63,886 bases of DNA, filler included, from Aduncisulcus paluster (GCA_024181965.1; 10 parts of 10 records of this genome joined end to end with filler, not necessarily neighbours in it); one strand, 5' to 3'. Shown: positions 1,045 through 54,243, counted from the whole stretch's first letter. Made by a program: numbers and translations. The notes: a model not told the origin generated them from the sequence alone.

Positions 1045-1579
1045 CTATATTGAATATAAATGAGTGTAAGGTGACAAAATAAAGGCCTAGAAATTTCCAA
1101 TCGGAATGGAACTTCACATCCAGACAGACCGACATGGATCACTATTAAAGAAATAAATTCTACAAAACACACATATATATTGATGAAATACAAATAAAAA
1201 ACGCAGTGAGATGAAGAATTATCTCACGATTTGTATAAAAATGGTCCAGAATGACATTTCAAGAAATCAGAAAAGAATTCATTTTGGAAATATAGCATAA
1301 AGTTTGGCTTTATCCAAAAATGTCTTTTCTTGCGCCAGCCTTCCCTCGCGTTTCGTCAATAAAAGGATCTCACGTGCTTCTCTATCTTCAAAGCCATTTT
1401 CAAGCATTATTCTCATTATTTCATCACTTGGAATACCCCTACTCACATTTTCATACACCCAATCGAGCCATGATTGAGGTGTGGTGTGTTNNNNNNNNNN
1501 NNNNNNNNNNGATGAAGAATTATCTCACGATTTGTATAAAAATGGTCCAGAATGACATTTCAAGAAATCAGAAAAGAAT

Positions 1580-2284
1580 TCATTTTGGAAATATAGCATA
1601 AAGTTTGGCTTTATCCAAAAATGTCTTTTCTTGCGCCAGCCTTCCCTCGCGTTTCGTCAATAAAAGGATCTCACGTGCTTCTCTATCTTCAAAGCCATTT
1701 TCAAGCATTATTCTCATTATTTCATCACTTGGAATACCCCTACTCACATTTTCATACACCCAATCGAGCCATGATTGAGGTGTGGTGTGTTTTAAGTAAT
1801 CATGAAACTCTTTGAATGAAATAACACCATCTCGATCATCATCAATAAGCTCAACCTCCTTAACTTTGCCTTCAATATAAGGTTTAGGGGCACCTTCCTC
1901 TTCTAATACTCTTCTAATTGATCTTTTTGTTAAAAAGCCACGAGTAATCATGTCAACATCATATTTCTTAAATTCAGCGATAACATTCAACGTAGTAATA
2001 TCACCCCGTTCTCGCATAGCTCTAAATTCTCTGTACCTCATTTTGACTCCAATGGGAATTGATCTTTTGGGAGAGTCCGATGATTCAAGAGTGGGTTTTT
2101 GTTTAGCTTCAAGAATAATATCAGTGAGTTCTTGAAGGGATGGATAAAGTCCAAGAGATTTAAAAATCGTTTTTAGTTCAGTTTTAGTGAAATAGTTTCT
2201 TTTGTTCAGGTCGAAAAGCTTCCAGAGTTTTTTTGTTGTCGCCTCTGGCTCAATATATTCCATCACCTCGATATCGGGTTGCAT
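1580..2284 (-). CDS. EF-hand calcium-binding protein (calmodulin-like), 234 aa
   Basis: One canonical EF loop (DDDRDGVISFKEF), degenerate loops (FDLNKRNYFTKTEL; YDVDMITRGFLTKRSI) and a calmodulin-like SLGLYPSLQEL linker. Confidence 0.8.
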   Translation of the reverse strand: MQPDIEVMEYIEPEATTKKLWKLFDLNKRNYFTKTELKTIFKSLGLYPSLQELTDIILEAKQKPTLESSDSPKRSIPIGVKMRYREFRAMRERGDITTLNVIAEFKKYDVDMITRGFLTKRSIRRVLEEEGAPKPYIEGKVKEVELIDDDRDGVISFKEFHDYLKHTTPQSWLDWVYENVSRGIPSDEIMRIMLENGFEDREAREILLLTKREGRLAQEKTFLDKAKLYAIFPK

Positions 2285-2448
2285 TTGTTATGAATATCAA
2301 TATTTTAATAAAATCTGTGGATTCAACCAAGCAATGCAATCAAAACGGAATTTCCAAAACTATTCTTGGCAGGACTAACACTACTAATATAAAACAATAC
2401 AAATAATGGTTTATAGATATTGATTAAAAATAAACATTCGTTTGATAT

Positions 2449-5253: not shown

Positions 5254-5633
5254 GAATGTGATATTTTAAAAATGAAAAGGAAAATCGAAACAAATAAATA
5301 ATTATTTTCAACTGTACTCCTTTATTATATTACTTTATAAATCCATCTTTTCACCTTCTCTCCCAGTGCTTAATCTTGTGGCAGGGCTGTAGAACATACC
5401 TTCTTTTGTTTTCCACACAGATACTAATTCTTTTCCTCTTCTTCCACCAAGAGCAACAACAACCTCCCTATGTCCAGCAATAGGACGATTATATTTTCCT
5501 TCAGAGGAAGTCAGAAAGGTCAGAGTTGAAATATTCTGGAATTTAATAAATCTTTCACTATNNNNNNNNNNNNNNNNNNNNAATCGAAACAAATAAATAA
5601 TTATTTTCAACTGTACTCCTTTATTATATTACT

Positions 5634-6314: not shown

Positions 6315-6838
6315 CGTTATCACAATCACACCCAAAGAAGAGATTTAAAAAAGGTCTGACATCCAGTAATAATACAAGCTTCATTCTGTTATTTTTTGTT
6401 GATCGATAAGGTGTAAATCACCAAGTTGTTTAAAAGATGGCAATTAATAGGTTTCAATGATGGTCAGTGTTGGGGGATGGATAAGCCGATTTGTAAAAGA
6501 TAAACATGNNNNNNNNNNNNNNNNNNNNTGCTGATTTTCTAACTGGACAACACTACCATAGGTAACTGCCATTGTATCATCACAAATAACACAAGAAAAA
6601 AGAAATGTTATGATACTTAAAGATAAACAAATTTTAAATAATCTCATCGTTATCACAATCACACCCAAAGAAGAGATTTAAAAAAGGTCTGACATCCAGT
6701 AATAATACAAGCTTCATTCTGTTATTTTTTGTTGATCGATAAGGTGTAAATCACCAAGTTGTTTAAAAGATGGCAATTAATAGGTTTCAATGATGGTCAG
6801 TGTTGGGGGATGGATAAGCCGATTTGTAAAAGATAAAC

Positions 6839-9800: not shown

Positions 9801-12110
9801 CTAAGACAGAAACTGCAAGTGAGCCCACCCAATTCACACTGACATTACCAGGATCTTCTATGATATTCACTGAAACTGAAGATANNNNNNNNNNNNNNNN
9901 NNNNAAAGTTAAATATTCCCAGTGAAAGTGAAGGAGACGGTGAGCATGAAGAAGAGGAAGAGGAAGAGGAAGAGGAAGAGGAAGGACATAAGAAGGAAAG
10001 TGTGACGGAAGAAGAAGACTTTGGTGACGAGGCCAATCCGTATGGTGAGGATCAGCCTTATACAAAGTCTAAGACAGAAACTGCAAGTGAGCCCACCCAA
10101 TTCACACTGACATTACCAGGATCTTCTATGATATTCACTGAAACTGAAGATATCTTGATGGATATTGAAGAGGATTCTGAGAATGAGGGAGAGGAAGAAG
10201 AAGAAGAGGAAGAGGAAGAGTCATTCTCCCCGCTGGAAGAAGAGGAAGAGGAGAAAGGAGATGGTGTATTCGCTGCTTTCTCTTTCCCTGAAATAGATGT
10301 GAATGAAGAACATCAAGGAGAGCTGGTTATTGGTGATTATAGTACGAAAGACCTGAGTCTTGCAGACGGATATGATGATGAAGCTCTTCCTTCAACTACG
10401 ACTGCCACTTCATCTCATTTCTCTGATGCTGACTCTGGAGGAAAGGATGATGGACTTAACTTTGATATCCCTGTGGTGGATGTCAAACCATCAGTACCAG
10501 TTGTGCATCCTCCATCTATGGAACTTCCAAAACTATCAATGAATCTTGCTCCTCATATTCCTTCAGCGCTTCCATCTCCTCCTCCTCGTCGTGGGCCCAA
10601 CCTTCTTTGCCCGATGCACCGTGGAAGTGTGTCCGAGTTGCATGAGGCTACAGGTGATGACGGTACTGTTATGTTGATGATCGATGACGACGCCGGCGGT
10701 AGTGTGGAAGATGTGGGTGACGGAGAGATGTCCTGTGCTCAAGAGAATTCCATTTCAATCTCTGATGTTCTGAATACACTTAAATCTCACTCTTCGAAGG
10801 GGACTCCACTCTCGCTTGACCCTCAGCACCTCCAATTGCTCTCTGAGTGTTGTGTCATGGTATTAGTCCGTGTATGTTCAATGGCTGTGAAATGTGCATC
10901 CATGTTTGATGTATATAAGGCTACTTTGCTCAGATGGGGCCAGGAAAGGCAAAGAAGGATGAAATTATCCAGAAGCAGTGAACCTGTTGATAAAAATAGA
11001 ACCAAACTTTCTTCCTCATCTGATATCGGTGTCACTGACTCAGAAGAAGATGAATTCGAACCTTTGATCGACATTCCCAAAGTGTCTGATGATTCCAGAT
11101 TCGTGTGTACGAACTACGTATCTCGAGTTCTTAATCAATTGTGTTCCAAACCCTCATTATCCGACAAAGTTAATATGCATCCAAAATATTACACTGATCT
11201 AAAAATAGAAACTTCTATTTGGGTATGTGAGGGAATTATTGAGAAATGTGTCTCGATGATTGAGGAAGAAAGAGAAATGGTTCGTCTTGAAAGAGAGCAA
11301 AGAGAGGAAGAGATGCGATTGATGCCTCCTCCAAAGTGGCGACGAGTGGAGTGTCAGCCTTCCATGCTTGGTTCCCCACGCTATGGCCAAGGTTCGAGTC
11401 CCTTACATCCTCCCCAAGAGTCTACATCCCCCAAGATGTCTTTATCCATCCCTCCTGGGACTCCATACGTTTCGAGCTATGATAACACAGATGTTCCAGA
11501 TATAACTTCGCTTTCTCCACTGCCGCCGCCCATTCCTTTTGCTCTCTCGCTTTCTCTTGTTTTACATAAGTGCAATTTCATGACACTCTCATTCCTTAAC
11601 ATTTTCTCCCTGTTTGGTGTTGTTTACGGTGGAAAGGCCAACAAACCTGATCCTGCAGCCATTCATGAGGAACCCGACAAGTCTCCTTCATTATCTCATT
11701 CTCAGTCAGATCAGAGCAAGGATCATGTGAGAGTTGAGGAAGATCAAGACTCTTCATATGAGTATGAATCTGTATATGATGATCCTTCCATCAGCGCTCC
11801 GCAGGGACTTGTGGATTCCTTCAATCCTCCGACTCCAGCGGCATTCTCGGCGAGTCATTTCGTCATTCCTTCAACACACGCCATCTCTCGCTATGGTGTT
11901 CGTGTGGCTGAATGGACAGAGAATATTGCTAAGAGAGGAATCGGAATTGGTTCCATTGGATGTGGTGCTAGTTCTTTGTTCTCGGATAAAATAGGGAAAC
12001 TAAGCATATACGAACGATTGTTCGAGGTTCGTCTTGATAGATCGGGTGCTCCTGGTGAGACTATGGTCCAATCAATGACAAAAAGTTCACCCAAAGAAAC
12101 TAACATCACA

Positions 12111-21542: not shown

Positions 21543-21642
21543 NNNNNNNNNNNNNNNNNNNNNNNNNNNNNNNNNNNNNNNNNNNNTTAATTAATTAANN
21601 NNNNNNNNNNNNNNNNNNNNNNNNNNNNNNNNNNNNNNNNNN
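21543..21642. other. Artificial contig spacer N44-TTAATTAATTAA-N44; also at 32941-33040, 34611-34710, 44739-44838, 46353-46452, 50086-50185, 52216-52315, 55353-55452, 61777-61876
   Basis: Identical 100-nt structure with a six-frame stop linker, nine times; sequence composition changes across it. Confidence 0.98.
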
Positions 21643-22271: not shown

Positions 22272-22559
22272 ATATAATTTTTGATACCAAGAAATAGCGA
22301 TTTGAGTCAAATCCGGATCATTTTTGGGGGGGACTCCCCCCGCATCGGATGCGTTAGGTTTCTTCACCTAAAACCTTAATATTTTTTTCTTGTTAATTCC
22401 GCTCAAAAAGGATCTCTAATTATTTTATTTTCATTCTTTCTGTGGTATTACAACATTTATGCCATAAACTCAGTGAGTTTTGTTCGGGCGGAACTACTAC
22501 TAGTACAGTATAGTTCGATATAGTAGGATGAAACTTAGTCCCCGCCTGCGGTATCGTAT

Positions 22560-23938
22560 TGATTGCAGACCTTATCTCTAGCTGGTAGATCACTTTCATT
22601 GATCAGTCTGACCGTTTCATTTGAAGCCACTCATGTTGTAACTCCCTCAGTTTACCAATTGTTGATTCAAATCTCTGACCCCCATCCTCCATAAAGGAGA
22701 AGTCAGGCTCAAAAATATTATCAGGGATATCGCCTTGAGCAGTAAACCAAGCAGGCAAGAACCCACTCGGTTTCAGCACCACTCCAGGGATCTCCATATC
22801 AATCGGATCACCAGAGACAGTTTCAGGTTGAGAGTCACTCACGATAGTGGATGTTCCATCACCCGGAGGATCAGGAAGCGGTGAGTGATGCGAGTCCTGG
22901 CCGCTACTACTCACATCATTCTCCACATCAAGTCCCGGAGGACCTGTCAGTATTTCAGATTGTTCGCCAGAGATGGCTAGGCTCTGTACCTCATTCTCAT
23001 TCTCGTCTCTTGTCTCATCATGCTCCATTTCTTGAGAAGTATCTCCGAACCCCGGGTCGGACAAATGGAACTCCACCCATGCAGCTGTATGTAATAAATC
23101 CATGAAATGCTTACTCGCATTGCTTGCTTGCAGGTTTTTCAAGAATGCTCCTATTCCTGATGGAAAGACCCCTCTAACATCTCTTGCAAGATGTTTCAAG
23201 GACCTCAGTTTGAGAGTATCCCTGTGATACAATGGCATATGACAACGAAGCCCTCCTTTCTCAAGAGGCAAGGCAAGACGGGTGGAAGGGATCTCAATCT
23301 TAAGCTTGTTAGACCAAAGATTGGAAAGTGCAGTGTTCATCGTTATCAGTTCATCATCGGGGATTGATGAATATTGGATAAGATAAGAGAATTGTTTGAG
23401 AATCACAGTCTCGAATACATAGTGAAATGATTGCAAGTCCAGGAACTCAGATGTCGTAACTGCCACTTCCAAGGTCTTCTTCAAGGAATCAACAGCTGCT
23501 TGAGATGCAATCTCTTCATCAGATGAGAGTGGCACCCCCATGACATCATGGCACCGTTCCACGACAAAGTCATCCTCCTCTGTTGTAACCGGAAGAGATC
23601 CCGGGGCCAGGGGAACATAGATAGTCTTGTCGCGGTTCAGCTCAAGACCGAACTCAGGCAAAATACCTTTGATAGCACTAAGAATGCTTCTGAGTTCATC
23701 AGTGGATCTTACAATCAGGGTAATAGCCTATCATCAAGATAGGCTATTACACGCGAGATTACTGCAACAACTGAGCCATTAGCATCTTTCATTTCAATAG
23801 GAGGCATCAATTCCTCTAAAAGAGCTAGGATGGGAATAATGGCAAGAGAGAACAGGAGGGATGAGAGCTTATCCCCTTGAACCAGACCTGTCTCTCGGTC
23901 GAGAACATCGTCATGAAAGATTCCTTTGAGTAAAACTT
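22560..23938 (-). mobile_element. Decayed non-LTR retrotransposon RT fragment, CRE-like (RLE-type), 5'- and 3'-truncated and frameshifted
   Basis: The minus strand upstream of the listed ORF reads GLVQGDKLSSLLFSLAI and IAYLDD. After a 5-nt frameshift it continues ITLIVRS...FGLELNRDKT, DVMGVPL, LPLEKGGL. These are RT motifs 4-7 plus thumb. YLDD and G.P motifs favour the CRE clade (inference). Confidence 0.85.
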
Positions 23939-24315: not shown

Positions 24316-27300
24316 ATGAAATATGTTTTGACTAGTTTTATTTTTATATTCTTTTTTTTATTAGTGGATGCGACAACCACTCGCAAATCCATAGATGTTT
24401 CTACTTCTTCAAAAGATGATATCGAATCTGTTTTTTCCGATCTTTGTCAACAAATAACCGATAATTCCCAAGATATTGGAATATTAGAGATAAATGCCAC
24501 CAATACATCTTCAAATATTTTTTCTATTCAAGATTCGTTGACTTTAAAATGCCCTCATGTAAAAATTGGATCTTCTGGCGATAAGAGGATATCCCTTCAA
24601 ATTGGAGGAATTGTATTGTATGATTCTTTAGATATAGAGGACATTACAATTTGTTCTATCATCGAGGACGACAATTCCATTTCTATTTCTGGATCTCTTC
24701 GAGGTGGAACTGCTAATCTGAAAAGTACTGATTTGATTAATATAGAATTGGCTTCTTCTGCTTCTAGTATTATTGAAGGCGATGGAACAGTGGTTGTTTC
24801 CTCATCTACTGTGTCCTTCTTGTCTCTGATTGTCGGGGCTGGAGGTAGCCTAAATTTGCAGCAGTATGCGCATGTAACAATCCTAGGAAGTTTGTACCTG
24901 AGTGGATTAGTGAATATAAGTGATTACAATACATCCAGCAACAGTTATAATGATGTTGTTGGATCTTTTCTTAAAGTAGGCGGAGATATCATCAGTGAAA
25001 CCGATGATGGACAGATATACATTAACAAGGCAACCCAAAGTATCAATGGAAATCAATCGAGCGGCCTCACAGGGAACAGTACATCCGATTCCAATTCTGA
25101 GGAAGTTATGGCTCTCGTCAACGTTGGGGGATCATTCTGTTACAATTCAAGCATCACCACGCATTCATTGGTTATGGCCAATGTCACAAATGAGTCCTCT
25201 TTTGCTCCTATTCGGATTAATCTAGGACCTTCCTTCTGCAATCCAGATACCTATACCCTTGGGTTGTATCGACCTCAAGTGAGCAGTATTTCGAGTGTTC
25301 AGGCCATTGGAGGTGTGTTCGAACTTGGAAAGAGTGACCTTGGAAGCTCCGTTATGTTTGAGGTTACTGCTGGTGAGTTCGAAGATGTCCAGGCCCTTGC
25401 TGGTTCTGTTTTCTATACATCAAGTCCGTTTAGGTGTTCTGCGAGTACAACTTTCAGCGATGACCTCAAAGGCCTCGGAATTATCTATATCAACGCAGAT
25501 GTTGCCTTTGATACTGTCACTATGACCTCAGCTGGTTCTGAACCTGTCTCTACCCTCACGACAAGTGCTCAAGCAATGAGGAAGTTCTTGGTTGCTGATG
25601 AGACCTCGCCCTTAGATAATATCCAACATTTGCTTACTCTTTGTGCCAGTATCACTTCCTTCGGGAATCCAGTCGTAACCTCACCTGTCCACATTTGCAG
25701 GAGAGAAGATGTGGTNNNNNNNNNNNNNNNNNNNNTACTGTCACTATGACCTCAGCTGGTTCTGAACCTGTCTCTACCCTCACGACAAGTGCTCAAGCAA
25801 TGAGGAAGTTCTTGGTTGCTGATGAGACCTCGCCCTTAGATAATATCCAACATTTGCTTACTCTTTGTGCCAGTATCACTTCCTTCGGGAATCCAGTCGT
25901 AACCTCACCTGTCCACATTTGCATGAGAGAAGATGTGGTCGATGAGAATGGGAACACTTCAACGATAGAGCATTGTCCATCAATGCACAAGGAATACCAG
26001 CCTCCCCATGCTTCTCTCTTTTATCCCTTGTTCATGTCAGTGCCTTGCCCAGACTGTAGTTCTCCACCAAGCCCATATAACTGGTATTCTGCATCTGCTA
26101 CACAGTTTCTTGAAGAATTCTATGATGCTCTTGACGATGATCTTGATGTGGCTCCATACATACGCTCTCTCAATAATGGTTCCAACTATGATCGTATTGG
26201 TCTCTCACCTCTGGCGAGTCATCGTGTTAAAGTATCTTCTGATCCTATTCCCATTACAAATGTGACTTCCACTTCAGATTACACCCCCTTGTGGGTGGAA
26301 CAGGCCATGGAAGATGCAAACTATAGTCATAATCCTTTCGAAATTGACGTGACCTCTTATTCAAGCTGTTTGAGTGATCCATATTCGAACCCTGATCTCT
26401 GCACTTGTATTGTTGACCCCTACAGCAATGAGGCCTTGTGCAATGTCGAAGTCGATGATATTATCAATGATTCTGATACCTACCCTGATCTCGACTCTGA
26501 TGTGTCAAGTGTGCTCTTTTCTTCATCTTGGGTGAGTGAGACACTGTCAAAGTTTGTATCCTTCGAAAATCCATCATTCTTGGATAATTCTGACGAGGAT
26601 TCCATCATATCTTCTTCTGTGATTGGATATTCCACTTTAGATGTAACCATGTTCACTCTCGACTCTGGTGCTCCCAGTTCCTATCCTTTCCTTGATTCTA
26701 CAAGTTCTCTGGCGTCTTCCTCGAGTTCTTCGTCTTCAACGACCTCTTCCGCTGTTATTCACACCCTACGTGTTGTTTTCAGGGATTATTTCGGTCAGCT
26801 CAGCGCCCCCGTTCAGAAGATGGACATTGGGGTTGGTGTCAGTTTTGAGGATATTGCTTTCTATCGGCCAGGTGTTGAGCCTTCATATGTGACTGTTAAT
26901 GCCTCATATGTGATGCAACACACAAATATTCCCGATTCGCTGGCTGAAGATAGTTCTACGAAGGATAACAGCGATGAGCTCATATATGAACGTGTGAGAG
27001 ACGATGATGTTGAAGTTTACATACCCATCACGCTCACAACTCCCATTGAAGATATTTATGGCTTTGGGTTCATTTTTGTGAAGCAGGCAAGCACTCTTCT
27101 TCCTTATAAATTCCCTATTCACGTTAATGTGTGTCAACTCGGTGCCACCCTCGTGTATCCAAGCAACAATAAGTTCCGAGGGGTCTGCTCATTTTGTGAT
27201 AGTGGGTACTATAAAATTGAGACAAAAAGAGGATCCGAGTGCATTGCTTGCCCCGATCATGTACAGTGTTTTGGTGGTAATATTGTTGGTGTTGATGAAG

Positions 27301-30300
27301 GCTGGTGGTTGCAATATACTGAGTTAGACCAGACTAACACTGCTATCGTTGCGCTCTCAGATGACTCGGATTCAAGTTCAGATGCTCTGTACACCCCTTA
27401 TGCCGATACAGATGGTTCCCTATTGCTCTATCCTTGTCCCGGTGGAACTTCTCAATGTCCAGGAAATGCTTCTGTCCTTGCTCTCTCTTTGTCTCTCTCC
27501 ACTTCTGTCAAGTCGGCCATGTGTGACGGTGGAAGTGAAGGTATATTGTGTGCTACTTGTTCTGACGATAATATGTATTCTGACGGACTTGGGTGTAAGA
27601 CATGTCCTTCTCAGGGAACTGAAATGGTCATCTCATTCGCTATCTGCGGTGGTGTTTGTCTCATTGTTCTCATTTTCCTGTTTGTGGGTCTATGTCGTGT
27701 GGCTTCTGTTACTGAGACCCGTGACACGCGTTGGAAACGTTGGAAGCGTGGAGAACGTGTTGATGAAATGTGGCAATGTGAATTGGAGCAACAAAAGCGG
27801 AAACAGATCGAGCAAGAGAAGTTTAGAAAACGTCTTGCGATGAAAGCTCTTATTCAAGATAGAGTTAAGCAAAGGAAGGCCTTGGAGGCCAATGAAAAGG
27901 CTCAAGATATTGTTGTTGATGGGAAAGGCACTGATGTCTCAACTGCTGAAAAATCCAACGGTGGAGGTCTTGTCAGTATAAAAAGTGCTCCAAACTTACA
28001 CTCATCCTCTGAAAACAATGGAATTCACTTCCGTAAGGCGAGTATTCCCCGTTCTAGAAGTGGAAGTCTGTTGGGTTCTTCTGGAATTGCTGTTCCCGTC
28101 CAAAAACCAGGGACTGCTCAGATTCGTGCTGAAAATGCAATAGCGAAAGAGGCATTCGGCATTGACTTTGAGAAATCTCCAGAAGCCGAGGATGGGACTC
28201 CTGTTCACAGTGGTGGCGATGAAGTTCAAGTCGTCCATATCATTAGTGCAGATGAGAGTGAAGACTCCTGTGAAGATGATAAAGGGACTTCAAAGGTTCA
28301 AAATGAAGGTATGGATAAGGGTGACTCTGGTCTTGGTCTTGGTCCTAATAAGGAAGGTGGGGAAGACGATGATGTTGTCATTGGACATCCTTCTGCTCCT
28401 GTATCCAACCCTCCAGCTCCACTCTTGCCCATACCCATTGCTTGTCATGTTGTTAAGGAAGAGGATGAGGGGAAACTATCTCCTTCCAGCTCTGGTTCTC
28501 AGCTGACGAAACCCTCGCCTGATCCTCAGGGCGCTGGATCTGGACGTTCGACTCGAGCATCTTCTGTATCCGATGAGCCACGGGAAATTTCTATATCCTC
28601 ATCGAGCAGTGAAGGAGTAATCAAGAGTGCAAGAAGGCAACTGGAAGACGAAGGATTGTTCTCTTCAAAGCAACCTGATGGCACTGAAGAGACTGGACAG
28701 AAACGAGTTGTTGTTGGATTTAGATCTGGTCTGACTGAGCGCGAAAGACAAAAACTTCCTCAGCTCGATGATGGAGAGGAGAAACAGCTTCGTTCCATTC
28801 TCTCTCTGCCATCCTTCAATGCTTACACTGAAAAACAGAAGAAGGTTAAGCAAGAAATGCAAGACAAGCAAAAAAAGTATTCAAAGACTGCACTGACCTC
28901 TTTCTCTCCCTCTTTTGCTCTCATGATGTTTATCCATCATTTCCAGTTATTTAGTGTCATTCCTTCCTCTTCCACCAGCACCAGTGAGTCGTCTTTCCCC
29001 CCTATGTCTCTGTGGGTCTACATTGAGTGTATATTCTTTGATAAAGCCACATCTTCCATCAATCCAAACATTCTTATGTATGCCGTGTATATTATCTTGC
29101 CTACTGCTATTGTCTGTCTTTCTTTCCTCATTGCACCGTTGTTAAGGATGTGTTGTGGCATGAAAATGCTGTCCTCGTCGTTGCTGTTTTACTATTTCTG
29201 TGAACTATTACTGTTTACATCCACTCAGGCAGCCGCTGGTGTGTTCATGATCACTTCTGCCTCTGAGAGTGTTGATTCTTCCCAGCAGTGGGTGTGGTTG
29301 ATTGATCCATCTGTGGGTACTGGCGATTCCAACTGGATTGTCCTTGTTGTTATTGCTGCTTGTGCCCTTGTATTCAACTTTATAGTAATTCCACTCCTCC
29401 TTGTTTTTATCTGGAGATACGCTGGTGGTGGCAGAGATGTCGACGAGGAACAAGAAGAACTCGATGATGTGTCCATGTATGACGGTTTTGGCCGGAAAAT
29501 GAACCGACAAAAAACTGTTCTCGAGCTTCGGAGAGAACGGCTCAAACGAATTGCTCTTCGTGAGAAGCGGAAAGAAGAGAAGAAAAAGAAACGTTTAGCT
29601 TCAAAGAAAAGAGCTGCAATTGATGATGAACCTTCTCAAATCCTTGATGAGAATGAGCTAGCTGAGAAAGAAAAGGAGAGGCTGAAGAAAGAGTTCCCAC
29701 CTCCTTTCTTCTTCTCTGACGATCTGAGGGATGGATTCCACGTTATTCCAATTGTTTTATTGATTGTTCGTCTCATGTTTGCAGTCTTGTCCAAACTTAT
29801 TGTTTCGAGACCCTTCTTTGTATACATCAGTGCGTTCATTCTCATTATCCTTCGGTTTATTCTCTTTCTCGTTCAACCATATAACAGAGCCAGATACAAC
29901 TCAATCTTTAGTCTTAGTTTTGATATTTTATGCCTCAGTTTCATTGTCATTGGATTTGTTGAGTCCTTCCTGAGTAACGTCATTTCTTTTGATTCTACCA
30001 TTGCCATTTCCTCCTCTTCCTCGGCTGATGTGGACTTATCAAGCTCTGGGGGAAGTATTATGAACACCACGGCCTTTATATTTGTTGTTGTGATCAATGT
30101 GATATTCCTCTTGTTCTTGTTCGTAAAGTTCTTACCCAAACAGAGAGAAGACATGAAGGAATACCACAGACAACTTCATATCCAGAGGGTCATTGAACGT
30201 CAACTGAGAGAGAGAAGTGGAATGGGTCTGCAGATGCCTGCTGCTGAATATGATGAAAGTGGTAGACTCCGACTTGTTGTCAGGAAAATCAAGAAGATCA

Positions 30301-30608
30301 AGAGAATTCCTTCCGGTCCTGGCACTGCTAAAAGGCAACGGAGGAGAAGAGGAGCCATTCCTATTGAAAACAGTGCTTTTGAGTCATCTAGGACTGGAAC
30401 AGCCGAGGGTATGGAGAGAGTTGTATCTGCACAAAGTTCAGGTTCTCAACAACCTCATCCAAGAGCTTCAAAATGGAATGTTGTCCGAAGCTTGTTTTCC
30501 TCAAAGCTTGGACAAACTCCTGTTATCTCAAGTACAAAGAATAAGTCTGCTATCGTTGATGTCGAAGATAGTGAAGAGAGTGTCGTTAGTCCCATTGCTT
30601 TCGGGTAA
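24316..30608 (+). CDS. Large multi-pass membrane protein: signal peptide, Ser-rich ectodomain, Cys-rich juxtamembrane region, multiple TM helices (about 2,020 aa after collapsing the overlap)
   Basis: 25736 onward duplicates 25512-25715 and joins in frame. Motifs CSFCDSGYY, CIACPDHVQCFGG..VDEGWW, CDGGSEGILCATC and C-terminal VQPYNRARYN resemble widespread protist Cys-rich 7TM-like proteins. Confidence 0.8.
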
Positions 30609-31436
30609 TATTAGAAAGTGCTTCTTATTACAATAGTACAATATAAATCGAAATTCAGATCTTGATTATGTTTCATCTGATTCTTTCAAAGATTAATTTA
30701 CTTTTTTTTTATCTATTTTGTCTATTTTTTGCATCTACCAGATAGGTTGCAATCCAGAATAGTTACTTTGTTATCATGAAAGAATGATTCCTTTGTGTCC
30801 TTTTTTTACAGTTTTTATTCATCTCTTAAATCTATTTTTTGTATTATTAAGATAATAATCTCATTATTCGATTNNNNNNNNNNNNNNNNNNNNAATATTA
30901 GAAAGTGCTTCTTATTACAATAGTACAATATAAATCGAAATTCAGATCTTGATTATGTTTCATCTGATTCTTTCAAAGATTAATTTACTTTTTTTTTATC
31001 TATTTTGTCTATTTTTTGCATCTACCAGATAGGTTGCAATCCAGAATAGTTACTTTGTTATCATGAAAGAATGATTCCTTTGTGTCCTTTTTTTACAGTT
31101 TTTATTCATCTCTTAAATCTATTTTTTGTATTATTAAGATAATAATCTCATTATTCGATTTTATTCAGAACAATTTCCTCTGAACGATCACCTTTTGTCT
31201 GAGCTCAATCTTCCTCATGAAATATTTTTACGTACGTTCTAATTGCAATATTTTGAGGAGACATTTTTTTCGATGCCGTTTTTTATTAGCATGTTCTTAT
31301 CAAATAATATTTGATAATATTTGACAAATATTATCATCGATAGTATCGATAGTCTTCGAAGACTCTTCGAGTAAATTCGATTTTACAGCTATAAAGTAAG
31401 GAAATAGCTTGAAAAGTTTTGTGGTCGCTCAAAACG

Positions 31437-31883
31437 TCACGTACTGAAACACGGTTTCAGTTCAAGAGAAACATCAGTGGGGTTCAGAGGATTCATTGCA
31501 GCAAGTACCCTTGGAATTGCTGATAACTTGACCTTTGGTTCATGTTTAATAACACCAGCTTTGGTCATTAGATGACGTTCATCGCTCTTCTCCATCGATA
31601 CCTTCTTACGCTGTTTCCTCTTCTCCTTAGATGTCAAGAATACAACTGGTTGGAATGATTCAACGTTTAAACGAGAATAAATTGTTGTGGGATAGTCATC
31701 AATTCGTATCTCGTTAACAAAAGATGAAACAATGAAATCTGAGGGGCCTTGTTTTGGAATCAGGAGTCTGTCCCAGGGTTCTACGATTTCAACGGTTTCC
31801 CGAATAAACTTCTCGTACCTTACGCGGGTTGAACCTTGGGATCTCACCGAGATTGGGTTCCTTGTTGAACTTTGTAAGATCAC
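31437..31883 (-). pseudogene. PRP3: Prp3 (U4/U6 snRNP)-like central domain fragment, truncated
   Basis: VEPWD...VFLTSKEKRKQRKK...KAGVIKHEPKVKLSAIPRVL....NPT matches the Prp3 pattern EWWD...YLTKKE.KK.RRQ...RLGL...EPKV.iSNlmRVL....DPT. No ATG start, out of frame with the upstream ORF, and it stops before the C-terminal domain. Confidence 0.65.
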
Positions 31884-31918
31884 ATTTGTTGTCGATCAAG
31901 ATCAAGAACATCAATTGC

Positions 31919-32940
31919 TTATTGATATTTCCATGCCTGATCCTCGGGCACATAAGTATATTCGTACGATGAAGATGGGTTTGAGGAATCTTCTTGTTCT
32001 CTGGATATTTCATGTTCACCCGATTCCGAAGCTTCCTGAATCGACGTCTCCAAAGCAGCTGAGCCTGGAGAAATGAATGATAAAGCTGGAGATGAGGATG
32101 AATCTTCAGAAATCGATACTTTCAAAGCAGATGAATGCATTGGTAGTTCTCCATTCCAAACACTATATCCTTGGCTTCTTTGAAGTTGAGCATACGCGCT
32201 GCTTGTGTTTTGAATGCTCATGATATGTCTCCCAATGCCAGCACCATCCTGATTCTCCAAATATCGCTTGATGTTATATACATCAACATTAGGGTATATC
32301 TCCATGTGGGAAACATGGGTAGAAGACTCATCAAGAGGAATTTCTTCTTCCTTTTCTTCTTCAATATCTCCTTCAATTTCTTCTTCCTCATCTTCTTCCT
32401 CCTCTTCTCCATACTCCTCTTCAATTTGTTTTTCAGAAAATTCATCCCTGATTTCCTCTTCCTTTGAGATTGGCAAAGGTTCATTTTGTTTGGGTACTTT
32501 CCTCGCCATCAAGAAATTAAAATCAAATAAATCAACTTCTTTTGGAGGTATATGCATTGATATTGGCTTTGGAACAACCTTTGGAGAAGTTGGTTTTGAA
32601 ATGATGGTTTGAGTCTTTGGAATAATAGTTAACTCAGACATTTGGACTGGAATGGTTTTCGATTGGGGACCAATCGGCCTCTCCGAAAAAAAATTATCCT
32701 CTTCCTCCTCTTCTTCCTCCTCTTCTCCATACTCCTCTTCAATTTGTTTTTCAGAAAATTCATCCCTGATTTCCTCTTCCTTTGAGATTGGCAAAGGTTC
32801 ATTTTGTTTGGGTACTTTCCTCGCCATCAAGAAATTAAAATCAAATAAATCAACTTCTTTTGGAGGTATATGCATTGATATTGGCTTTGGAACAACCTTT
32901 GGAGAAGTTGGTTTTGAAATGATGGTTTGAGTCTTTGGAA
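31919..32940 (-). CDS. Glu-rich protein fragment with a 106-aa tandem repeat (5'-partial); may be the N-terminal part of the Prp3-like gene
   Basis: Frame open from the contig edge to TAA at 31919-31921; repeat period 318 nt. Confidence 0.55.
32387..32940. repeat. 318-nt period tandem duplication
   Basis: About 32387-32622 is nearly identical to about 32705-32940 with no N gap between; the contig ends inside the repeat. Confidence 0.85.
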
Positions 32941-33040
32941 NNNNNNNNNNNNNNNNNNNNNNNNNNNNNNNNNNNNNNNNNNNNTTAATTAATTAANNNN
33001 NNNNNNNNNNNNNNNNNNNNNNNNNNNNNNNNNNNNNNNN

Positions 33041-33202: not shown

Positions 33203-33719
33203 TATTAATATATTTCATTTGTTGTTGGGGGTCCAAACATAACTTCTTTGATACATGTCAACCCATCAATATTTATCGGGAATTCCAACGGCAAGGCAAG
33301 GATTTTGTATTTAGTGTTTTATAGAAAATAATAAAAAAATCATTTTTTTTGAACAGGGCAACCTGGGTGTCTTTGGTATGCTAGAGGGGTAAGCTCTCAT
33401 AATATGATATTTTTTTTTATTTAGCTTCTAATATTTTCAGAAATTAAACCGACAAAAAAAAGTAAACATCGTCGTAGAGCGATTCTAATGCCGTTTTTGA
33501 GCACTACTCAGGAGGTCGGTATTTATTAAGGTAATATCAAAACTAAATAAAATATATATATATTAAGTTAATTTGCTTATTAGTTCCGGAGATATTTTGT
33601 ACTTTATTCTCATTCAAAAAAATTGCTGATTCGAAGTGTTTGTTTTTGTCAAAAATAATGGATTATATTAAAAAAAAACCAAAATAATCATGATATTAGA
33701 TACTATCTAATATACTTTT

Positions 33720-34710: not shown

Positions 34711-36731
34711 GAGAAAGAGATGTGAATGATGATATATTACGGTTTAATGGCCGACGTCCAGGAAGTTGAGTTGTGTGTGGTCGAGCAGGTAACATATTCC
34801 CTTCCCTATCGTACTGAATCCGAGCACTACCAACATGACGACCAGACACAAATGAAGATGGATCATCTGTATCCGTGACTGAAGATACTTCATGTCTTCG
34901 ACTGCTCGTCATGGATGTGCTTGGCATGGATGTTGAGGGAAGATGTGGTGAGAAACGTCCCTTGTTTCTATGATTACCTTCCACCAACATCAGATGAGAA
35001 TGGGCAAGAGGGGCAGAGGATCGAAGGTCCACAAATGGAGATGGTTTAAACGTCGAAGGGATAAGCATGGATTGTATCATGGCACCATCGGGTGTGTTGG
35101 GTGGGAAAGCAGTAATTGTATCCATAATCCCCTGTCGTTGTCTTGCAAGGGCCCTCTTACGTTCTTCTGAGGCTCCAGATATACTATTAAAACGACCACT
35201 GCCTCCACCAACACTTTCTACACCTCTTCTACGACAATGGAGGGCAGGGGAACGGGATTTTGGAATGCCGGAAGAAGCCAGTCTGGCCGCTTGAATATGT
35301 CCATGTTCTGGCGTTTGCAAACGAGAATACTGATCTGTTGTTTCTCTTCTTCTTCCCAGATCCATGGATCTCCTTGTTCGAGCTTGAGATGTGGCTGGAC
35401 GACCATGAGTAGCACTACTTCTTGAATTACTTGTAGTAGAAAGGGAGGAAGGAGGGATACTAAAATACTGTTTACGACGGAGAATTTCATCAGTAGCCGG
35501 TGATTTAGCACTATCTCTACGTATAGATTGAAATGTAGGACGGAAAACTCCACCACTGACACCAGATAGTGCCATTCCAGAGCTCTCATATACTGTACCA
35601 TCATATCCAAAATGTTTAGTACAGTATAGCTCAGGTCTTTGTTGTTGACATCGATGAGTATGTTGATGTTCAGGAACGTCTCGTGGTACATCAATGGTCG
35701 GCGATGCTGGAATATAATGGTCCATCTGTTCCCCATAGATTGGTGGAGGAAACTCTGGTTCCTGTTCATCCATAATTACCCTATCTCTGAATTGATAACT
35801 TCTATCATCCAAAAACATATCCATTCCTCGGTCTTCTCGGTCCTTATCACCACTGNNNNNNNNNNNNNNNNNNNNTCAGGAACGTCTCGTGGTACATCAA
35901 TGGTCGGCGATGCTGGAATATAATGGTCCATCTGTTCCCCATAGATTGGTGGAGGAAACTCTGGTTCCTGTTCATCCATAATTACCCTATCTCTGAATTG
36001 ATAACTTCTATCATCCAAAAACATATCCATTCCTCGGTCTTCTCGGTCCTTATCACCACTGGGATTACTGTGGGGTCTGGGACCAGGAATTCCAGCAAAC
36101 TCATTCTTTTGGTCAAACTCATTATGTTGTTCAAAATCATCAATGGTAGGCAGCCTATCAGGAGGTACTGGGCCATATTGTCCAGTTTCTAAATAAATTG
36201 ACAAATTCTTTCGAGGTTTCAGAGGGGCTTGTTCACCATGGAGACCAGTGACAACGGGGAAGTCAATACCATGCTGAAGCCGATCAATATCAACCGATCT
36301 ATGATCAAATATATCATATAATTCCGAATCTACAACTCTACGATTTCGGTGAGATCTTGAACCTGGATCCACAGTCCAAGGTCTATCGGGGTTTTTTGAA
36401 GCTTTGGATGAAATAATTTTTGCAGTTTTCGGCGAAATTTGTTTATATCTTTCAAATTTTCTTGCTATTTCTAAAGCTTCCCTATCTTTTGGTGACTGAA
36501 GCTCAATCTCCTGATTATGTCTTTTTCTTACTTTGTTTCTATTTTTTCGTGCATATTCTTTCCGAGCTAACGCAATGGTAATTCTTCTCGCAGAAGCTCT
36601 ATTTATATTTCAAGTATATTTCGAAAATGTTAATAAACATGGGATTCAGTTTTTAAATTACAGATTTAATTTATAAAAACATACGTATCAAAGGGAATTG
36701 AAGAAAAAAGAGAGGCCTTTTGAGTCTTCAT
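34711..36731 (-). CDS. Hypothetical Ser/Arg/Pro-rich, probably disordered protein; exon 1 36731-36685, intron 36684-36599, 3'-partial
   Basis: MKTQKASLFSSIPFD-T-ASARRITIALARKE... joins across an 86-nt GTATGT...AAATAG intron, runs in frame into ORF 35776-36372 and, after collapsing the 20-N overlap, into ORF 34655-35824. Confidence 0.75.
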
Positions 36732-52315: not shown

Positions 52316-54243
52316 CCCCTCCATAGCATACACGAAGACCAGAGATTGAGCAATAAATACACAGCGCCAAGACGATCCATGAAATGCTGCACACACAGAT
52401 GGGTCTGAATGAAGGAAATAAGTTTGGGAAGAAGAATGAATATCACAGGGGGGATCACAGAGAATCGTCTCGGCATTGAATGTAGCAATTCCATATAAGG
52501 TAAACTGAGTAAGGGCGATGAACTGTGTATTTTTGGAAGGGAAGATACTCTATACAGAGCAACAGCATGGAGGGTATCAGAAGGAGCATCAAGTGAGAAA
52601 GGCGTGTCAGGAAGGATATCCCGAGGTAATCCAGTAAAGGCAGCCGAAGATCTAGAATAGGATGAGACATACGACTCAGAAACTCTGGACTCATGAGGGA
52701 TGTCGGAGAACGTTACTCTCTTTGAAAGGACTCTTGTGGAACAAGATAGATCAGGAAATTCCTTGGAGGTTGAAACATCTCCACGTTTTTGCATATCTTT
52801 GCTCGCAAGGCATGCCAATCCGAGTCCACCACCAGTGAGAAGGACATCTGCTTCATATCCATGCTCAGATTCTATTTCTTCCCTTTTTCGCCTCTGTGCG
52901 CTCATCTTATCCAATTTGTGGGACACGGGGAGTGGAAGAGAGGGAACAGACGCTGGAGCCAGAATAGATTGACAAATAAACTGAAGATTATGCATATGGC
53001 TTAGTGATGGAGCAGGACTATGCTTTGCAGTGTCAACAAGCTCTTTTTCTGACTTCTTCGTCGATTTTTCACAGTCCTTAAATCTCTTCTTCTCCTTTGT
53101 CACAATTGAGAACAAAGAAGGATATAAATATGGAACATCACACATCCAAATAGAAATTATATGCGTTACAAGCTCACAAAACCTTGTTATTTGGAATATA
53201 TGTGGAGAGACTGGAGAAGCAGATAACTTCGGAAGAGAAGAGGACACAGAAGGGGTATCATACAACTTAGGTCTCCAGCGTGTCTGAGGATGAGCATTAT
53301 GGACGTGATCCCGCGAAGATATCGGCTTTTCGAAGGAAAAAGAAGCAATTGGGAAAAAAGAAATAAAATGTTGATCCCAAAATAATGGAGATACTTTTCC
53401 TTTCTTTTTACCTCCAAAATAATATCTTTTTTGACAATTAGAATATGTCCACGATTCAATGGCACGGTCCCTTGTTTTCTCAACAATTCCAATCTCATGG
53501 AAATGCGCAGTGGGATCAACAACTTTTAACCATGGCAATAATAAAGATTGATATACTTGATCGTCTTCAAGTCTTTGAGTTCCCACCCAGAATAACCAGG
53601 CCAAGGTAAGTTCAAGAGTGGATACACGAACCGTCATATCAGTCATCGAAAAGACTCTATCAGCCCAAAAAGGCCCCGAAATAGATTTTTTAGCCTTGAT
53701 TGATTTTGGAACTAAGTCTCTTGGCAGATTATAAAAATAATCACGACTTTCATTATGNNNNNNNNNNNNNNNNNNNNCTTGATCGTCTTCAAGTCTTTGA
53801 GTTCCCACCCAGAATAACCAGGCCAAGGTAAGTTCAAGAGTGGATACACGAACCGTCATATCAGTCATCGAAAAGACTCTATCAGCCCAAAAAGGCCCCG
53901 AAATAGATTTTTTAGCCTTGATTGATTTTGGAACTAAGTCTCTTGGCAGATTATAAAAATAATCACGACTTTCATTATGTAACAAACAAACTACTTGCAT
54001 AAATGGAGAAGAAGGGTGAAAAATCTTTCTTAAATTCCTTGCAATTCTTCTAGAATCAGATGCAGCTTCCAAATAGTTCTTTTTAGCAGAATTCCCGAAA
54101 ACATTCTCTAAGAACTCAGGAAGGAGAACTGAAAACTTTTGTAGGCCTGATTCATTTGCCCTGGGCACATCACCCTCTCTAAAGCATTCATGTACAACGG
54201 ATTCAATTGGAAATAGCCCCATATCCTCCAAAATAAAAAACAT
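52316..54243 (-). CDS. Probable SMPD4 (neutral sphingomyelinase-3)-like protein, 3'-partial
   Basis: LLPEFLENVFG...IFHPSSPFMQVVCLL..E...YNLPRDLVPKSIK...STLEL...VYQSLL and LLPKLISFIQ...LLNLWSSCMLWR follow the SMPD4 motif order as recalled. Contains a 20-N overlap duplication. Confidence 0.5.

What the first reader, a model, noticed from the sequence alone, without database searches (positions are those of the whole stretch)
31297..31386. Chain of six overlapping inverted repeats, mostly with 1-nt centres: a possible iterative snap-back DNA synthesis scar
Seen: TTATCAAATA-a-TATTTGATAA (31297-31317), TGATAATATTTG-a-CAAATATTATCA (31312-31336), ATCGATA-g-TATCGAT (31336-31350), AGTCTTCGAAGACT (31351-31364), TCGAAGA-c-TCTTCGA (31356-31370) and GTAAA-ttcgat-TTTAC (31371-31386). 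Each overlaps or abuts the previous one, so about 90 nt can be built by repeatedly copying the preceding few bases in reverse. It lies just beyond the truncation of the Prp3-like frame. Known: templated snap-back insertions are the signature of synthesis-dependent microhomology end joining (Pol theta type). Base-centred palindromes are also left by hairpin-opening repair after hAT/CACTA excision. Inference: this genome has a very active hairpin-templated mutational or repair process that writes new intergenic DNA.
Basis: partly seen in the sequence, partly recalled or inferred. Interest (0 to 1): 0.85.

Follow-up and report, generated by a model that had tools for sequence, protein, structure and literature searches.

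The report
Hairpin-rich repair scar in dead gene copy
A run of small overlapping palindromes in the protist Aduncisulcus paluster is real and looks like filler DNA written by a polymerase that kept copying its own product backwards while a fragment of a splicing-factor gene was pasted into a gap between genes, which is a known kind of repair scar but an unusually long one.

Summary
All six inverted repeats are at the stated coordinates. The cluster is far beyond chance: 5 palindromes with arms of 7 nt or more and spacer 0-1 lie within 100 nt, and 0 of 800 shuffles reached 4.

The chain runs further than reported, to 31461, giving about nine inverted repeats. The window is a set of short Illumina contigs of Aduncisulcus paluster (Fornicata). 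A DNA-run contig and a contig from an RNA-like run both carry the tract with 0 differences. The published library used sonication, not MDA.

The "Prp3-like frame" is a fragment, residues 24-172 of a full Prp3 gene on another contig. In that donor, 30 contiguous coding bases stand where the window has 164. Nineteen of the 30 survive as three colinear anchors (P about 0.0005), separated by the palindromic blocks. The tract is therefore a derived net insertion of about 134 nt.

My best reading is serial short-range template switching during repair or copying (SD-MMEJ, polymerase theta or MMBIR type). The enzyme is unknown, and only 69 of 165 nt are explained by local copying.

The genome-wide claim is only hinted at. 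In about 10 kb of other non-ORF DNA, spacer-1 palindromes number 13 against about 4.6 expected. No whole genome was available to test this.

The parts
30894..31289 (+). 3' flank (probable 3' UTR) of the convergent + strand gene (ORF 25641..30608). 30894-31160 is an exact duplicate of 30607-30873 across a 20-N gap, so the true stop codon lies about 402 nt left of the tract.
   Evidence: Searches show the exact duplicate. In one search an RNA-like run X2 contig runs from beyond 30894 to 31076, further contigs reach 31244 with 0 differences, and depth is 1329-3263.
31290..31298 (-). Anchor 1 (CATGTTCTT). This is the last surviving piece of donor Prp3 coding sequence (codons for ..EEH) and is probably the true end of the copied fragment.
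31299..31352 (.). Insertion block 1 (54 nt, replacing 4 donor bases). It holds palindromes 31297-31317 (10/1), 31312-31336 (12/1) and 31336-31350 (7/1), a 10-nt tandem duplication ATAATATTTG x2 and a 9-nt tandem duplication ATCGATAGT x2.
31353..31358 (-). Anchor 2 (TCTTCG), a donor remnant.
31359..31424 (.). Insertion block 2 (66 nt). It contains the right arms of palindromes 31351-31364 (7/0) and 31356-31370 (7/1), repeat 31371-31386 (5/6), imperfect repeat 31381-31415 (12-nt arms, 83%, spacer 11), AAAAgTTTT at 31412-31420, and the left arm of 31416-31435 (6/8). It also contains an 11-nt direct copy (ATTCGATTTTA, 31375-31385) of 31153-31163.
31425..31431 (-). Anchor 3 (TCGCTCA), a donor remnant. 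It overlaps anchor 2 by TCG in the donor.
31432..31453 (.). Block 3 (22 nt, replacing 7 donor bases). It holds ACGTcACGT (31434-31442), the left arm of repeat 31443-31461, and the stop codon of the annotated chimeric protein (31437-31439, minus strand).
31443..31461 (.). Inverted repeat ACTGAAAC-acg-GTTTCAGT that straddles the end of contiguous homology. The right arm is Prp3 coding sequence (..ELK). The left arm is its inverted copy after a 3-nt loop.
31454..31889 (-). Contiguous copy of residues 24-172 of the full-length Prp3 paralogue (89-90% amino-acid identity). It is a dead gene fragment, annotated as the C-terminal part of the chimeric model P0121.

Best explanation
The tract is a mutational scar, not a device.

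A fragment of about 465 nt of the Prp3 splicing-factor gene (donor residues 24 to about 182) was copied, in antisense orientation, into the spacer between two convergent genes of Aduncisulcus paluster. Over the last 30 donor bases next to the left junction, synthesis became non-processive. The growing strand repeatedly left its template, copied 6-12 nt of just-made or adjacent DNA in reverse (and sometimes directly, giving 9-11-nt tandem duplications), and then returned to the donor. Three donor remnants of 9, 6 and 7 nt are left in order, with about 134 net new bases between them. These fold as a string of about seven small hairpins.

Shown:
- The tract is real and non-random.
- It is absent from the donor copy.
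- The donor state is the ancestral one.
- Donor remnants are interleaved with the palindromic blocks.

Inferred:
- The blocks arose by serial template switching during break repair or break-induced copying, of the synthesis-dependent microhomology-mediated end joining, polymerase theta or MMBIR type.
- They arose together with the fragment's insertion.

Unknown:
- The enzyme.
- The direction of synthesis.
- The source of about 58% of the inserted bases.
For: **Reality of the tract**
- A 2033-nt contig of DNA run X1 spans 30894-31509 with 0 differences, at depth 1267. Contigs of the other form have depth 1183.
- A 125-nt contig of the RNA-like run X2 spans 31276-31398 with 0 differences.
- The library used sonication and no amplification by MDA.

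**Non-randomness**
- 0 of 800 shuffles reach a cluster of 4, against 5 observed.
- 0 of 1000 shuffles reach the copy-explained content of the core or of the whole tract.
- The single-strand DNA fold is a row of seven hairpins, z = -4.5, with 0 of 200 shuffles as stable.

**Context**
- P0122 is a 473-aa Prp3 with both Pfam domains, on another contig of 21,327 nt. It matches the window only over residues 24-172, which is 31889-31455.
- It then continues RAHERRIEEHE...
- Contigs of both runs leave the window left of 31450-31454, with 26-30 letters that encode exactly those residues.

**Derived state**
- The donor's PRP3 domain matches the Pfam profile to position 218 of 220. The window copy stops at 197.

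**Interleaved remnants**
- 19 of the 30 donor letters occur in colinear order at 31290-31298, 31353-31358 and 31425-31431.
- This score was reached by 1 of 2000 shuffles of the region, 0 of 2000 shuffles of the 30-mer, and 1 of 644 other 184-nt regions.

**Fold-back at the break**
- The 8/3 repeat at 31443-31461 has one arm in Prp3 coding sequence and the other arm in new DNA.

**Published background**
- Snap-back and loop-out templated insertions are described for SD-MMEJ (PMC5728401, passages read; PMC2943611 and PMC4912351, listing and abstract starts).
- Metamonads are reported to lack Ku70-Ku80 and DNA-PKcs, with alternative end joining complete in Carpediemonas and partial in others (PMC8516963, passages).
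Against: - Only 69 of 165 nt are explained by copies of >=6 nt from the previous 40 nt (61 of 165 when read on the other strand). The rest has no identified template in the window, apart from one 11-mer 222 nt away.
- Perfect 1-nt centres are not what intramolecular snap-back predicts. Spacer=3 repeats are not enriched.
- The donor DNA itself could not be fetched. The comparison rests on a 30-letter contig overhang and the donor protein.
- The anchors were noticed before they were tested.
- The assembly is a fragmented short-read one with systematic artefacts. All nine 20-N gaps are flanked by exact duplicates of 186-313 nt.
- Both runs come from one sample, so there is no independent isolate.
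- The RNA-like depth falls from about 2675 to 181 at the left edge of the tract. This would also fit a role at a transcript end.
- TCGA recurs 5 times at spacings of 9-11 nt, which could instead indicate a binding array or a decayed 10-nt minisatellite.
Confidence: 0.6

Rival explanations
1. The tract is a functional string of hairpins at the 3' ends of two convergent genes. It would act as a transcript-end or termination element, or as an array of sites for a protein that reads TCGA once per helical turn. Its origin is secondary.
For: - The tract lies about 402 nt after the + gene's stop and 51-140 nt after the minus-strand stop.
- Depth in the RNA-like run drops from 2675 to 181 at its left edge.
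- TCGA occurs 5 times at spacings of 9, 10, 11 and 10 nt, against 3.8 per kb in the window.
- The motif AGTAAAT at 31371-31377 resembles the Giardia polyadenylation signal. That resemblance is recalled, not tested.
- Short inverted repeats are reported near yeast polyadenylation signals (PMC6420913, listing and abstract start only).
Against: - Every palindrome has a different sequence, so there is no common half-site.
- Overlapping palindromes cannot all fold at once.
- The tract is a recent insertion into a dead gene fragment, not a conserved element.
- The RNA fold is only marginal: z = -2.2, with 5 of 200 shuffles as stable.
- Contigs cannot show transcript ends.
Confidence: 0.12
2. Palindrome-rich, fragile intergenic DNA was there first and caused the break at which the Prp3 fragment landed. 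Homology ends at 31454 and the three 'anchors' are coincidence.
For: - Odd palindromes are enriched in other non-ORF DNA of the window: 13 against 4.5-4.7 expected.
- Short chains occur elsewhere, at 644-666, 22299-22353 and 22456-22480.
- Inverted repeats are known break sites (PMC10164571, listing and abstract start).
Against: - The colinear 9+6+7-nt remnants of the donor lie inside the tract. The score was reached in 1 of 2000, 0 of 2000 and 1 of 644 controls.
- One arm of the 31443-31461 repeat is Prp3 coding sequence, so that repeat cannot predate the fragment.
Confidence: 0.1
3. The tract is a transposon-related structure. Candidates are a Helitron-type end hairpin beside a captured gene fragment, abutting terminal repeats of a deleted element, or hAT-type excision footprints from hairpin opening.
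For: - A gene fragment beside palindromes recalls gene capture by Helitrons. Base-centred palindromes recall hAT hairpin footprints. Both points are recalled, not tested.
- Earlier notes of this scan describe single fold-back scars at transposon ends in other genomes.
Against: - The tract has single-copy depth: 1267, the same as haplotype- or copy-specific contigs.
- No second copy of any part longer than 12 nt exists in the window.
- There are several AT-rich palindromes of unrelated sequence, not one GC-rich hairpin.
- Arms of 7-12 nt repeated in a chain are far beyond P-nucleotide footprints.
- No target-site duplication was seen.
Confidence: 0.06
4. The tract is an assembly or library artefact.
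For: - The assembly shows systematic artificial duplications at all nine 20-N gaps.
- Contigs are short (N50 4.6 kb).
- Both runs come from the same sample.
Against: - An independent re-assembly of the DNA run spans the tract and 55 nt of the Prp3 fragment with 0 differences, at full single-copy depth.
- A second, RNA-like library carries 31276-31398 with 0 differences.
- The library used sonication, not MDA or enzymatic shearing.
- The tract contains no N and does not lie at a contig end.
Confidence: 0.04

Closest known systems
Templated insertions of synthesis-dependent microhomology-mediated end joining / polymerase theta-mediated end joining (snap-back, loop-out and trans modes)
   Same: - New bases at a rearrangement junction are direct or inverted copies of DNA a few to tens of nt away.
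- There are several rounds of short synthesis, dissociation and re-annealing.
[quoted passage not shown]
   Different: - The size: about 134 net nt and about nine repeats, against typically a few to some tens of nt (recalled).
- Most centres are a single base, which an intramolecular hairpin primer cannot give.
- 58% of the tract has no identified template.
- The polymerase is not identified in this organism.
Short-range template-switch mutations that create or perfect hairpins (four-point model)
   Same: A replication or repair strand switch writes an inverted copy of neighbouring sequence and so creates perfect stems de novo (PMC5453318 and PMC8794818, listing and abstract starts).
   Different: Those events are usually single and roughly length-neutral, and they copy a source still visible next door. 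Here many events are stacked, the locus grew more than fivefold (30 to 164 nt), and the ancestral 30-mer holds no source for most of the new bases.
Microhomology-mediated break-induced replication / fork stalling and template switching (recalled; not looked up here)
   Same: - A copied fragment of a distant gene is inserted at a new place.
- Serial template switches cluster near one junction.
- There are small overlaps at the switch points, such as TCG between anchors 2 and 3.
   Different: These mechanisms are usually described at kilobase to megabase scale in yeast and human. The steps here are 6-12 nt.
Palindromic (P) nucleotides and hAT-type excision footprints from hairpin opening (recalled)
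   Same: Both give base-centred or perfect short palindromes at a healed break.
   Different: Footprints are a few nt long, single, and flanked by target-site duplications. Here arms reach 12 nt, occur in a chain, and no duplication or element is seen.
General enrichment of short perfect inverted repeats in non-coding DNA of eukaryotes
   Same: Perfect inverted repeats are enriched outside coding sequence and depleted in it (PMC13155455, passages; PMC5941160, abstract start). In the window the depletion in ORFs is 10 against 18.4 for spacer 1.
   Different: That survey (arms >=10) reports that eukaryotes favour spacer 0. In this window the excess is at spacer 1 (13 against 4.6) and not at spacer 0 (7 against 4.0-4.4, one of the 7 being an assembly duplicate).

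Membership tests
SD-MMEJ / polymerase theta-type templated insertion scar | Lies at a break-repair or rearrangement junction | tested here: met
   The tract occupies the last 30 donor bases of an ectopically copied Prp3 fragment, next to the junction at about 31289/31290.
SD-MMEJ / polymerase theta-type templated insertion scar | Inserted bases are direct or inverted copies of sequence close to the junction | tested here: inconclusive
   49 of 74 nt in the core and 69 of 165 nt overall are copies of >=6 nt from the previous 40 nt, and 0 of 1000 shuffles reach this. However, 96 of 165 nt remain unexplained, and 19 of those are donor anchors.
SD-MMEJ / polymerase theta-type templated insertion scar | Snap-back priming from a hairpin with a sterically possible loop (about 3 nt or more) | tested here: inconclusive
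   The 8/3 repeat at 31443-31461 fits. Six palindromes with 1-nt centres (arms 4-12) against 1.09 expected do not fit unless a short palindrome was already there or the switch was between molecules.
SD-MMEJ / polymerase theta-type templated insertion scar | Polymerase theta (or an equivalent low-processivity polymerase) is present and required | not testable with these tools
   No genome or proteome of the organism could be searched with a family model. The literature passage says only that alternative end joining is 'partial' in some metamonads. The main text of that paper does not mention Aduncisulcus (0 occurrences), and its supplements were not seen.
Single short template-switch mutation (four-point model) | One inverted copy of a neighbouring source explains the whole cluster of changes | tested here: not met
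   At least nine copy operations are needed, and the ancestral 30-mer has no source for most inserted bases.
hAT / V(D)J-type hairpin-opening footprint | A short palindromic addition of a few nt at a single excision site, flanked by a target-site duplication | tested here: not met
   Arms are 7-12 nt, with five or more palindromes in a row. No flanking duplication appears among the direct repeats of the region.
Repeated mobile element (MITE, Helitron end) | Multiple copies in the genome | tested here: inconclusive
   Depth of the DNA contig is 1267, equal to copy-specific contigs. There is no second copy in the 63.9-kb window. The whole genome was not searchable.
Known structured RNA family | Match to an Rfam covariance model at the gathering score | tested here: not met
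   There were only two sub-threshold matches in 30400-31900, neither in the tract: mir-1822 at 22.1 bits against 73, and snoU30 at 21 bits against 45.

The most novel reading that the evidence does not exclude
Aduncisulcus paluster belongs to a clade reported to lack classical end joining. It may have a repair or replication process that preferentially writes perfect odd-centred palindromes, with a 1-nt and mostly G/C centre, in steps of about 10 nt. If so, it creates new non-coding DNA and ready-made hairpin strings genome-wide. The tract would be its most extreme product. The threefold spacer=1 excess in other non-ORF DNA and the short chains at 644-666, 22299-22353 and 22456-22480 would be its background signature.
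Probability: 0.2. Interest if true: 0.75.

Novelty: new member of a known kind. Interest (0 to 1): 0.5.

Why it matters
The locus is a clear natural example of how repair synthesis can invent sequence. Thirty coding bases became 164 bases of hairpin-forming DNA, and the ancestral state is still readable in a paralogue.

Aduncisulcus belongs to the metamonads, which are reported to lack Ku-dependent end joining. Scars of this type are therefore direct evidence of which back-up pathway heals breaks there.

If the odd-centre preference holds genome-wide, it would be a new mutational signature and a source of de novo hairpins. With the data at hand it is one well-documented scar of a known kind.

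The work also shows that the annotated protein P0121 is a chimera ending in scar-encoded residues, and that the assembly carries artificial duplications at every 20-N gap.

Tried and rejected
- **Whole-genome test.** Counting by arm and spacer, and inventories of polymerase theta, Ku and Artemis, were not possible because no genome is held. Only the 63.9-kb window was used.
- **Earlier notes of this scan.** There were none for this genome. A word search gave three single fold-back scars in other genomes, which did not change my reading.
- **Sequencing runs.** No RNA holder is listed on record, and X2 is only guessed to be RNA. I treat it as RNA-like because its depth varies from 0 to 3263 over 2 kb and because, at the seven differing sites between 31564 and 31836, it shows only the other form's letters.
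- **Rfam on 30400-31900.** Nothing reached threshold.
- **Remains of the donor's C-terminal half.** tblastn of P0122 at E up to 10 found no match left of 31455. Homology therefore does not continue detectably beyond 31290.
- **Templates for the tract elsewhere in the window.** I found only chance-level 9-12-mers, plus one nearby 11-mer at 31153-31163.
- **Direction of synthesis.** The parse explains 69 nt on the + strand and 61 nt on the - strand. This does not decide it.
- **Window-wide excess of palindromes with arm >=7 and spacer <=1.** There are 17 against 11.3-11.8 expected (P 0.06-0.09), and 5 of the 17 are the tract itself. The excess is not significant at that threshold. It appears only for arm >=6 in non-ORF DNA.
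- **Spacer=0 excess (10 against 4.3).** I rejected this. Three of the 10 are the artificial TTAATTAATTAA linkers and one is an assembly duplicate. With linkers masked the count is 7 against 4.0-4.4.
- **Small ORFs in 30609-31436.** These are five ATG ORFs of 25-128 aa, one of them an out-of-frame ORF inside the + gene. I did not consider them genes.
- **Intron reading of the tract.** I rejected this because the tract-free form is present in DNA contigs too.

Full report
**What the window is.** The 63,886-base window is a concatenation of short contigs. They are joined by an artificial N44-TTAATTAATTAA-N44 linker. [quoted passage not shown] The genome announcement (PMC9933649, whole text read) describes Covaris sonication, Kapa HyperPrep, HiSeqX 150-bp pairs and MaSuRCA, giving 25,863 contigs with N50 4.6 kb.

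The finding lies on the contig at 21643-32940. All nine 20-N gaps of the window are flanked by exact duplicates of 186-313 nt. One of these pairs is 30607-30873 = 30894-31160. These are un-merged overlaps. The + strand gene's stop codon (30606-30608) therefore really lies about 402 nt left of the tract.

**The observation.** Five have arms of 7-12 nt and spacer 0 or 1. The sixth (5-nt arms, 6-nt spacer) is unremarkable alone.
- Five such centres fall within 100 nt. In 800 local dinucleotide shuffles of the window the largest cluster was 3, and none reached 4.
- A greedy parse copies >=6 nt, directly or in reverse, from the previous 40 nt. It explains 49 of 74 nt of 31297-31370 (43 inverted) and 69 of 165 nt of 31297-31461. 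No shuffle out of 1000 reached either value.
- Among 6062 sliding windows this is the richest in inverted self-copies.
- The chain continues rightwards: 31381-31415 (imperfect), 31416-31435 (6/8), ACGTcACGT at 31434-31442, and 31443-31461 (8/3).
- As single-stranded DNA the region folds into a row of seven hairpins (z = -4.5). As RNA the signal is weak (z = -2.2).
- Part of the symmetry is also tandem duplication, with units of 10, 9 and 11 nt. TCGA recurs five times at spacings of 9-11 nt.

**Is it in the reads?** One search found two coded runs of the same organism and sample. Laid on 30894-32940, they show the following.
- A 2033-nt contig of the DNA run X1 covers 30894-31509 with 0 differences, at depth 1267.
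- A 125-nt contig of X2 covers 31276-31398 with 0 differences, at depth 181. X2 is listed only as 'RNA?'. It behaves like RNA because its depth ranges from 0 to 3263 and because, at the seven differing sites between 31564 and 31836, it shows only the other form's letters.
- These are re-assemblies of what may be the source data, and both come from one sample. This excludes an assembler or rare-chimera artefact, but it is not an independent isolate.

**What surrounds it.** The ORF at 31437..31883 (-) matches Pfam PRP3 only to profile position 197 of 220. Two A. paluster proteins match it. P0121 (443 aa) is the gene model on this contig. P0122 (473 aa) lies on another contig of 21,327 nt and has both the PRP3 and Prp3_C domains.
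- P0122 aligns to the window only over residues 24-172, which is 31889-31455, at 89-90% identity.
- It then continues RAHERRIEEHEQRN... Its PRP3 match runs to profile position 218 of 220. The donor state is therefore the ancestral one, and the window holds a dead fragment.
- Nothing of the donor's C-terminal 300 residues is in the window.
- In one search, contigs of both runs leave the window just left of 31450-31454. Their 26-30 overhanging letters encode exactly RAHERRIEEH. The tract-free form therefore exists as DNA, at depth 1183, about equal to the window form.
- X2 shows only the other form of the Prp3 part and of the acidic N-terminal part of P0121. P0121 is therefore probably an unexpressed chimera. 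This rests on contigs, which drop rare variants.

**The key comparison.** The 30 overhanging letters begin with CATGTTCTT, which is window 31290-31298, the left edge of the tract. Chaining exact matches of >=6 nt places 19 of the 30 letters in colinear order at 31290-31298, 31353-31358 and 31425-31431. That score was reached by 1 of 2000 shuffles of the region, 0 of 2000 shuffles of the 30-mer, and 1 of 644 other regions of the window.

The palindromic blocks (54 nt, 66 nt, and 22 nt in place of 7) therefore lie between remnants of Prp3 coding sequence. Thirty bases became 164. The 8/3 repeat at 31443-31461 has its right arm in the codons for ..ELK and its left arm in new DNA, which is a textbook fold-back at a break. 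The stop codon of P0121 and its last five residues are encoded by the scar.

One caveat applies. I saw the 9-mer before testing it, and the donor DNA beyond 30 letters could not be fetched.

**Mechanism.** The most economical account is serial short-range template switching while the Prp3 fragment was being copied into, or joined at, a break between two convergent genes. Non-processive synthesis would have alternated between the donor, the nascent strand or its complement (giving inverted copies), and slipped realignment (giving tandem copies). This is the logic of SD-MMEJ and polymerase theta end joining (PMC5728401, passages; PMC4912351, PMC2943611 and PMC5068794, listing and abstract starts), of short template-switch mutations (PMC5453318 and PMC8794818, abstract starts), and of MMBIR (recalled).

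Metamonads are reported to lack Ku70-Ku80 and DNA-PKcs, with alternative end joining complete in Carpediemonas and partial elsewhere (PMC8516963, passages). Aduncisulcus is not in that paper's main text, and its supplements were not seen.

Several points do not fit a simple snap-back.
- Most centres are a single base, but an intramolecular hairpin needs about three. Spacer=3 repeats are not enriched. This suggests switching between strands or molecules, or priming on pre-existing mini-palindromes.
- 58% of the tract has no identified template.
- The direction of synthesis is undecided.

**The genome-wide claim.** At arm >=7 and spacer <=1, the window as a whole has 17 palindromes against 11.3-11.8 expected (P 0.06-0.09), and five of them are the tract. 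At arm >=6 I excluded the tract, the linkers and one duplicate block. The 9.9-10.4 kb of non-ORF DNA then holds 13 spacer=1 palindromes against 4.5-4.7 expected. That count was reached by 0 of 150 dinucleotide shuffles, and by 1 of 300, 0 of 300 and 0 of 300 Markov simulations of order 1, 2 and 3.
- Spacer 0 gives 7 against 4.0-4.4, and spacers 2, 3 and 6 are not enriched. Spacers 4 and 5 are mildly high (7 each against about 3.3).
- ORF DNA is depleted: 10 against 18.4 for spacer 1.
- Centres are G/C in 9 of 13, against 34-37% expected.
- Short overlapping chains occur at 644-666, 22299-22353 and 22456-22480.
- A tree-of-life survey reports that eukaryotes favour spacer 0 (PMC13155455, passages), so a spacer=1 preference would be unusual.

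This is a hint from 10 kb, not a demonstration.

**Rivals.**
- A functional hairpin or TCGA array at transcript ends is not excluded, because X2 depth falls at the tract's left edge. It fits poorly with unrelated palindrome sequences and with a recent origin inside a dead gene fragment.
- A pre-existing fragile palindromic site is contradicted by the interleaved donor remnants.
- A mobile element is unlikely given single-copy depth and the absence of any repeat of the tract.
- An artefact is unlikely.

**Verdict.** It is a new and unusually elaborate member of a known kind, of moderate interest. It would become more interesting if the odd-centre signature proves to hold genome-wide.

Noticed in passing
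window 1491-1510, 5562-5581, 6509-6528, 9885-9904, 25716-25735, 30874-30893, 35856-35875, 53758-53777, 56927-56946: Every one of the nine 20-N gaps is flanked by an exact duplicated block of 186-313 nt. In eight of the nine the block reaches the gap edge. These are un-merged contig overlaps, so the assembly contains artificial tandem duplications that can corrupt gene models and repeat counts.
   Followed up: yes
window 21543-21642, 32941-33040 and seven more: The window is a concatenation of separate contigs joined by N44-TTAATTAATTAA-N44. The linker is itself a perfect 12-nt palindrome and inflates spacer-0 counts unless it is masked.
   Followed up: yes
window 22299-22353 and 22456-22480: A second, shorter chain of odd-centred palindromes lies in the spacer between two minus-strand ORFs. 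It consists of GATTTGAgTCAAATC, GGGGGGAcTCCCCCC, CGCATCgGATGCG, and then TTTATGcCATAAA overlapping AAACTCAgTGAGTTT.
   Followed up: partly
window 644-666: Two overlapping odd palindromes, AATTTTGAcTCAAAATT and CTCAAAAtTTTTGAG. This is one motif in alternating orientation three times.
   Followed up: no
window 33693-33713 and 23720-23750: Two further long perfect inverted repeats in non-ORF DNA: ATATTAGATAcTATCTAATAT (10-nt arms, 1-nt centre) and GTAATAGCCTATC-atcaa-GATAGGCTATTAC (13-nt arms).
   Followed up: no
window 31437-32875 (-), protein P0121: The annotated protein is a chimera of an acidic repeat protein (ORF 31919..32875, with a 318-nt internal tandem duplication) and the Prp3 fragment. 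They are joined by a predicted intron that skips the first ORF's stop codon. In the RNA-like run the acidic part's other form diverges 6 nt after that stop, at 31913.
   Followed up: partly
protein P0122 (other contig), residues 167-276: The full-length Prp3 model carries an exact 55-residue tandem duplication beginning at VSLELK, 17 nt from the window copy's breakpoint. It could be a real second rearrangement at the same spot or an assembly duplication.
   Followed up: no
window 31574 and 30980: DNA-run contigs leave the window left of 31574 and right of 30980 (table 7). The first could be an intron of the donor gene, which would make the window copy a retrocopy, or it could be a third copy. 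The second is another form of the + gene's 3' flank.
   Followed up: no
window 25641-30608 (+): A 1655-aa cysteine-rich, serine-rich and acidic membrane-type protein. Its only Pfam hit is sub-threshold, to an ELAPOR1-like TNF-receptor repeat (18 bits against a cut-off of 33.2). The RNA-like run covers its 3' flank at high depth.
   Followed up: no
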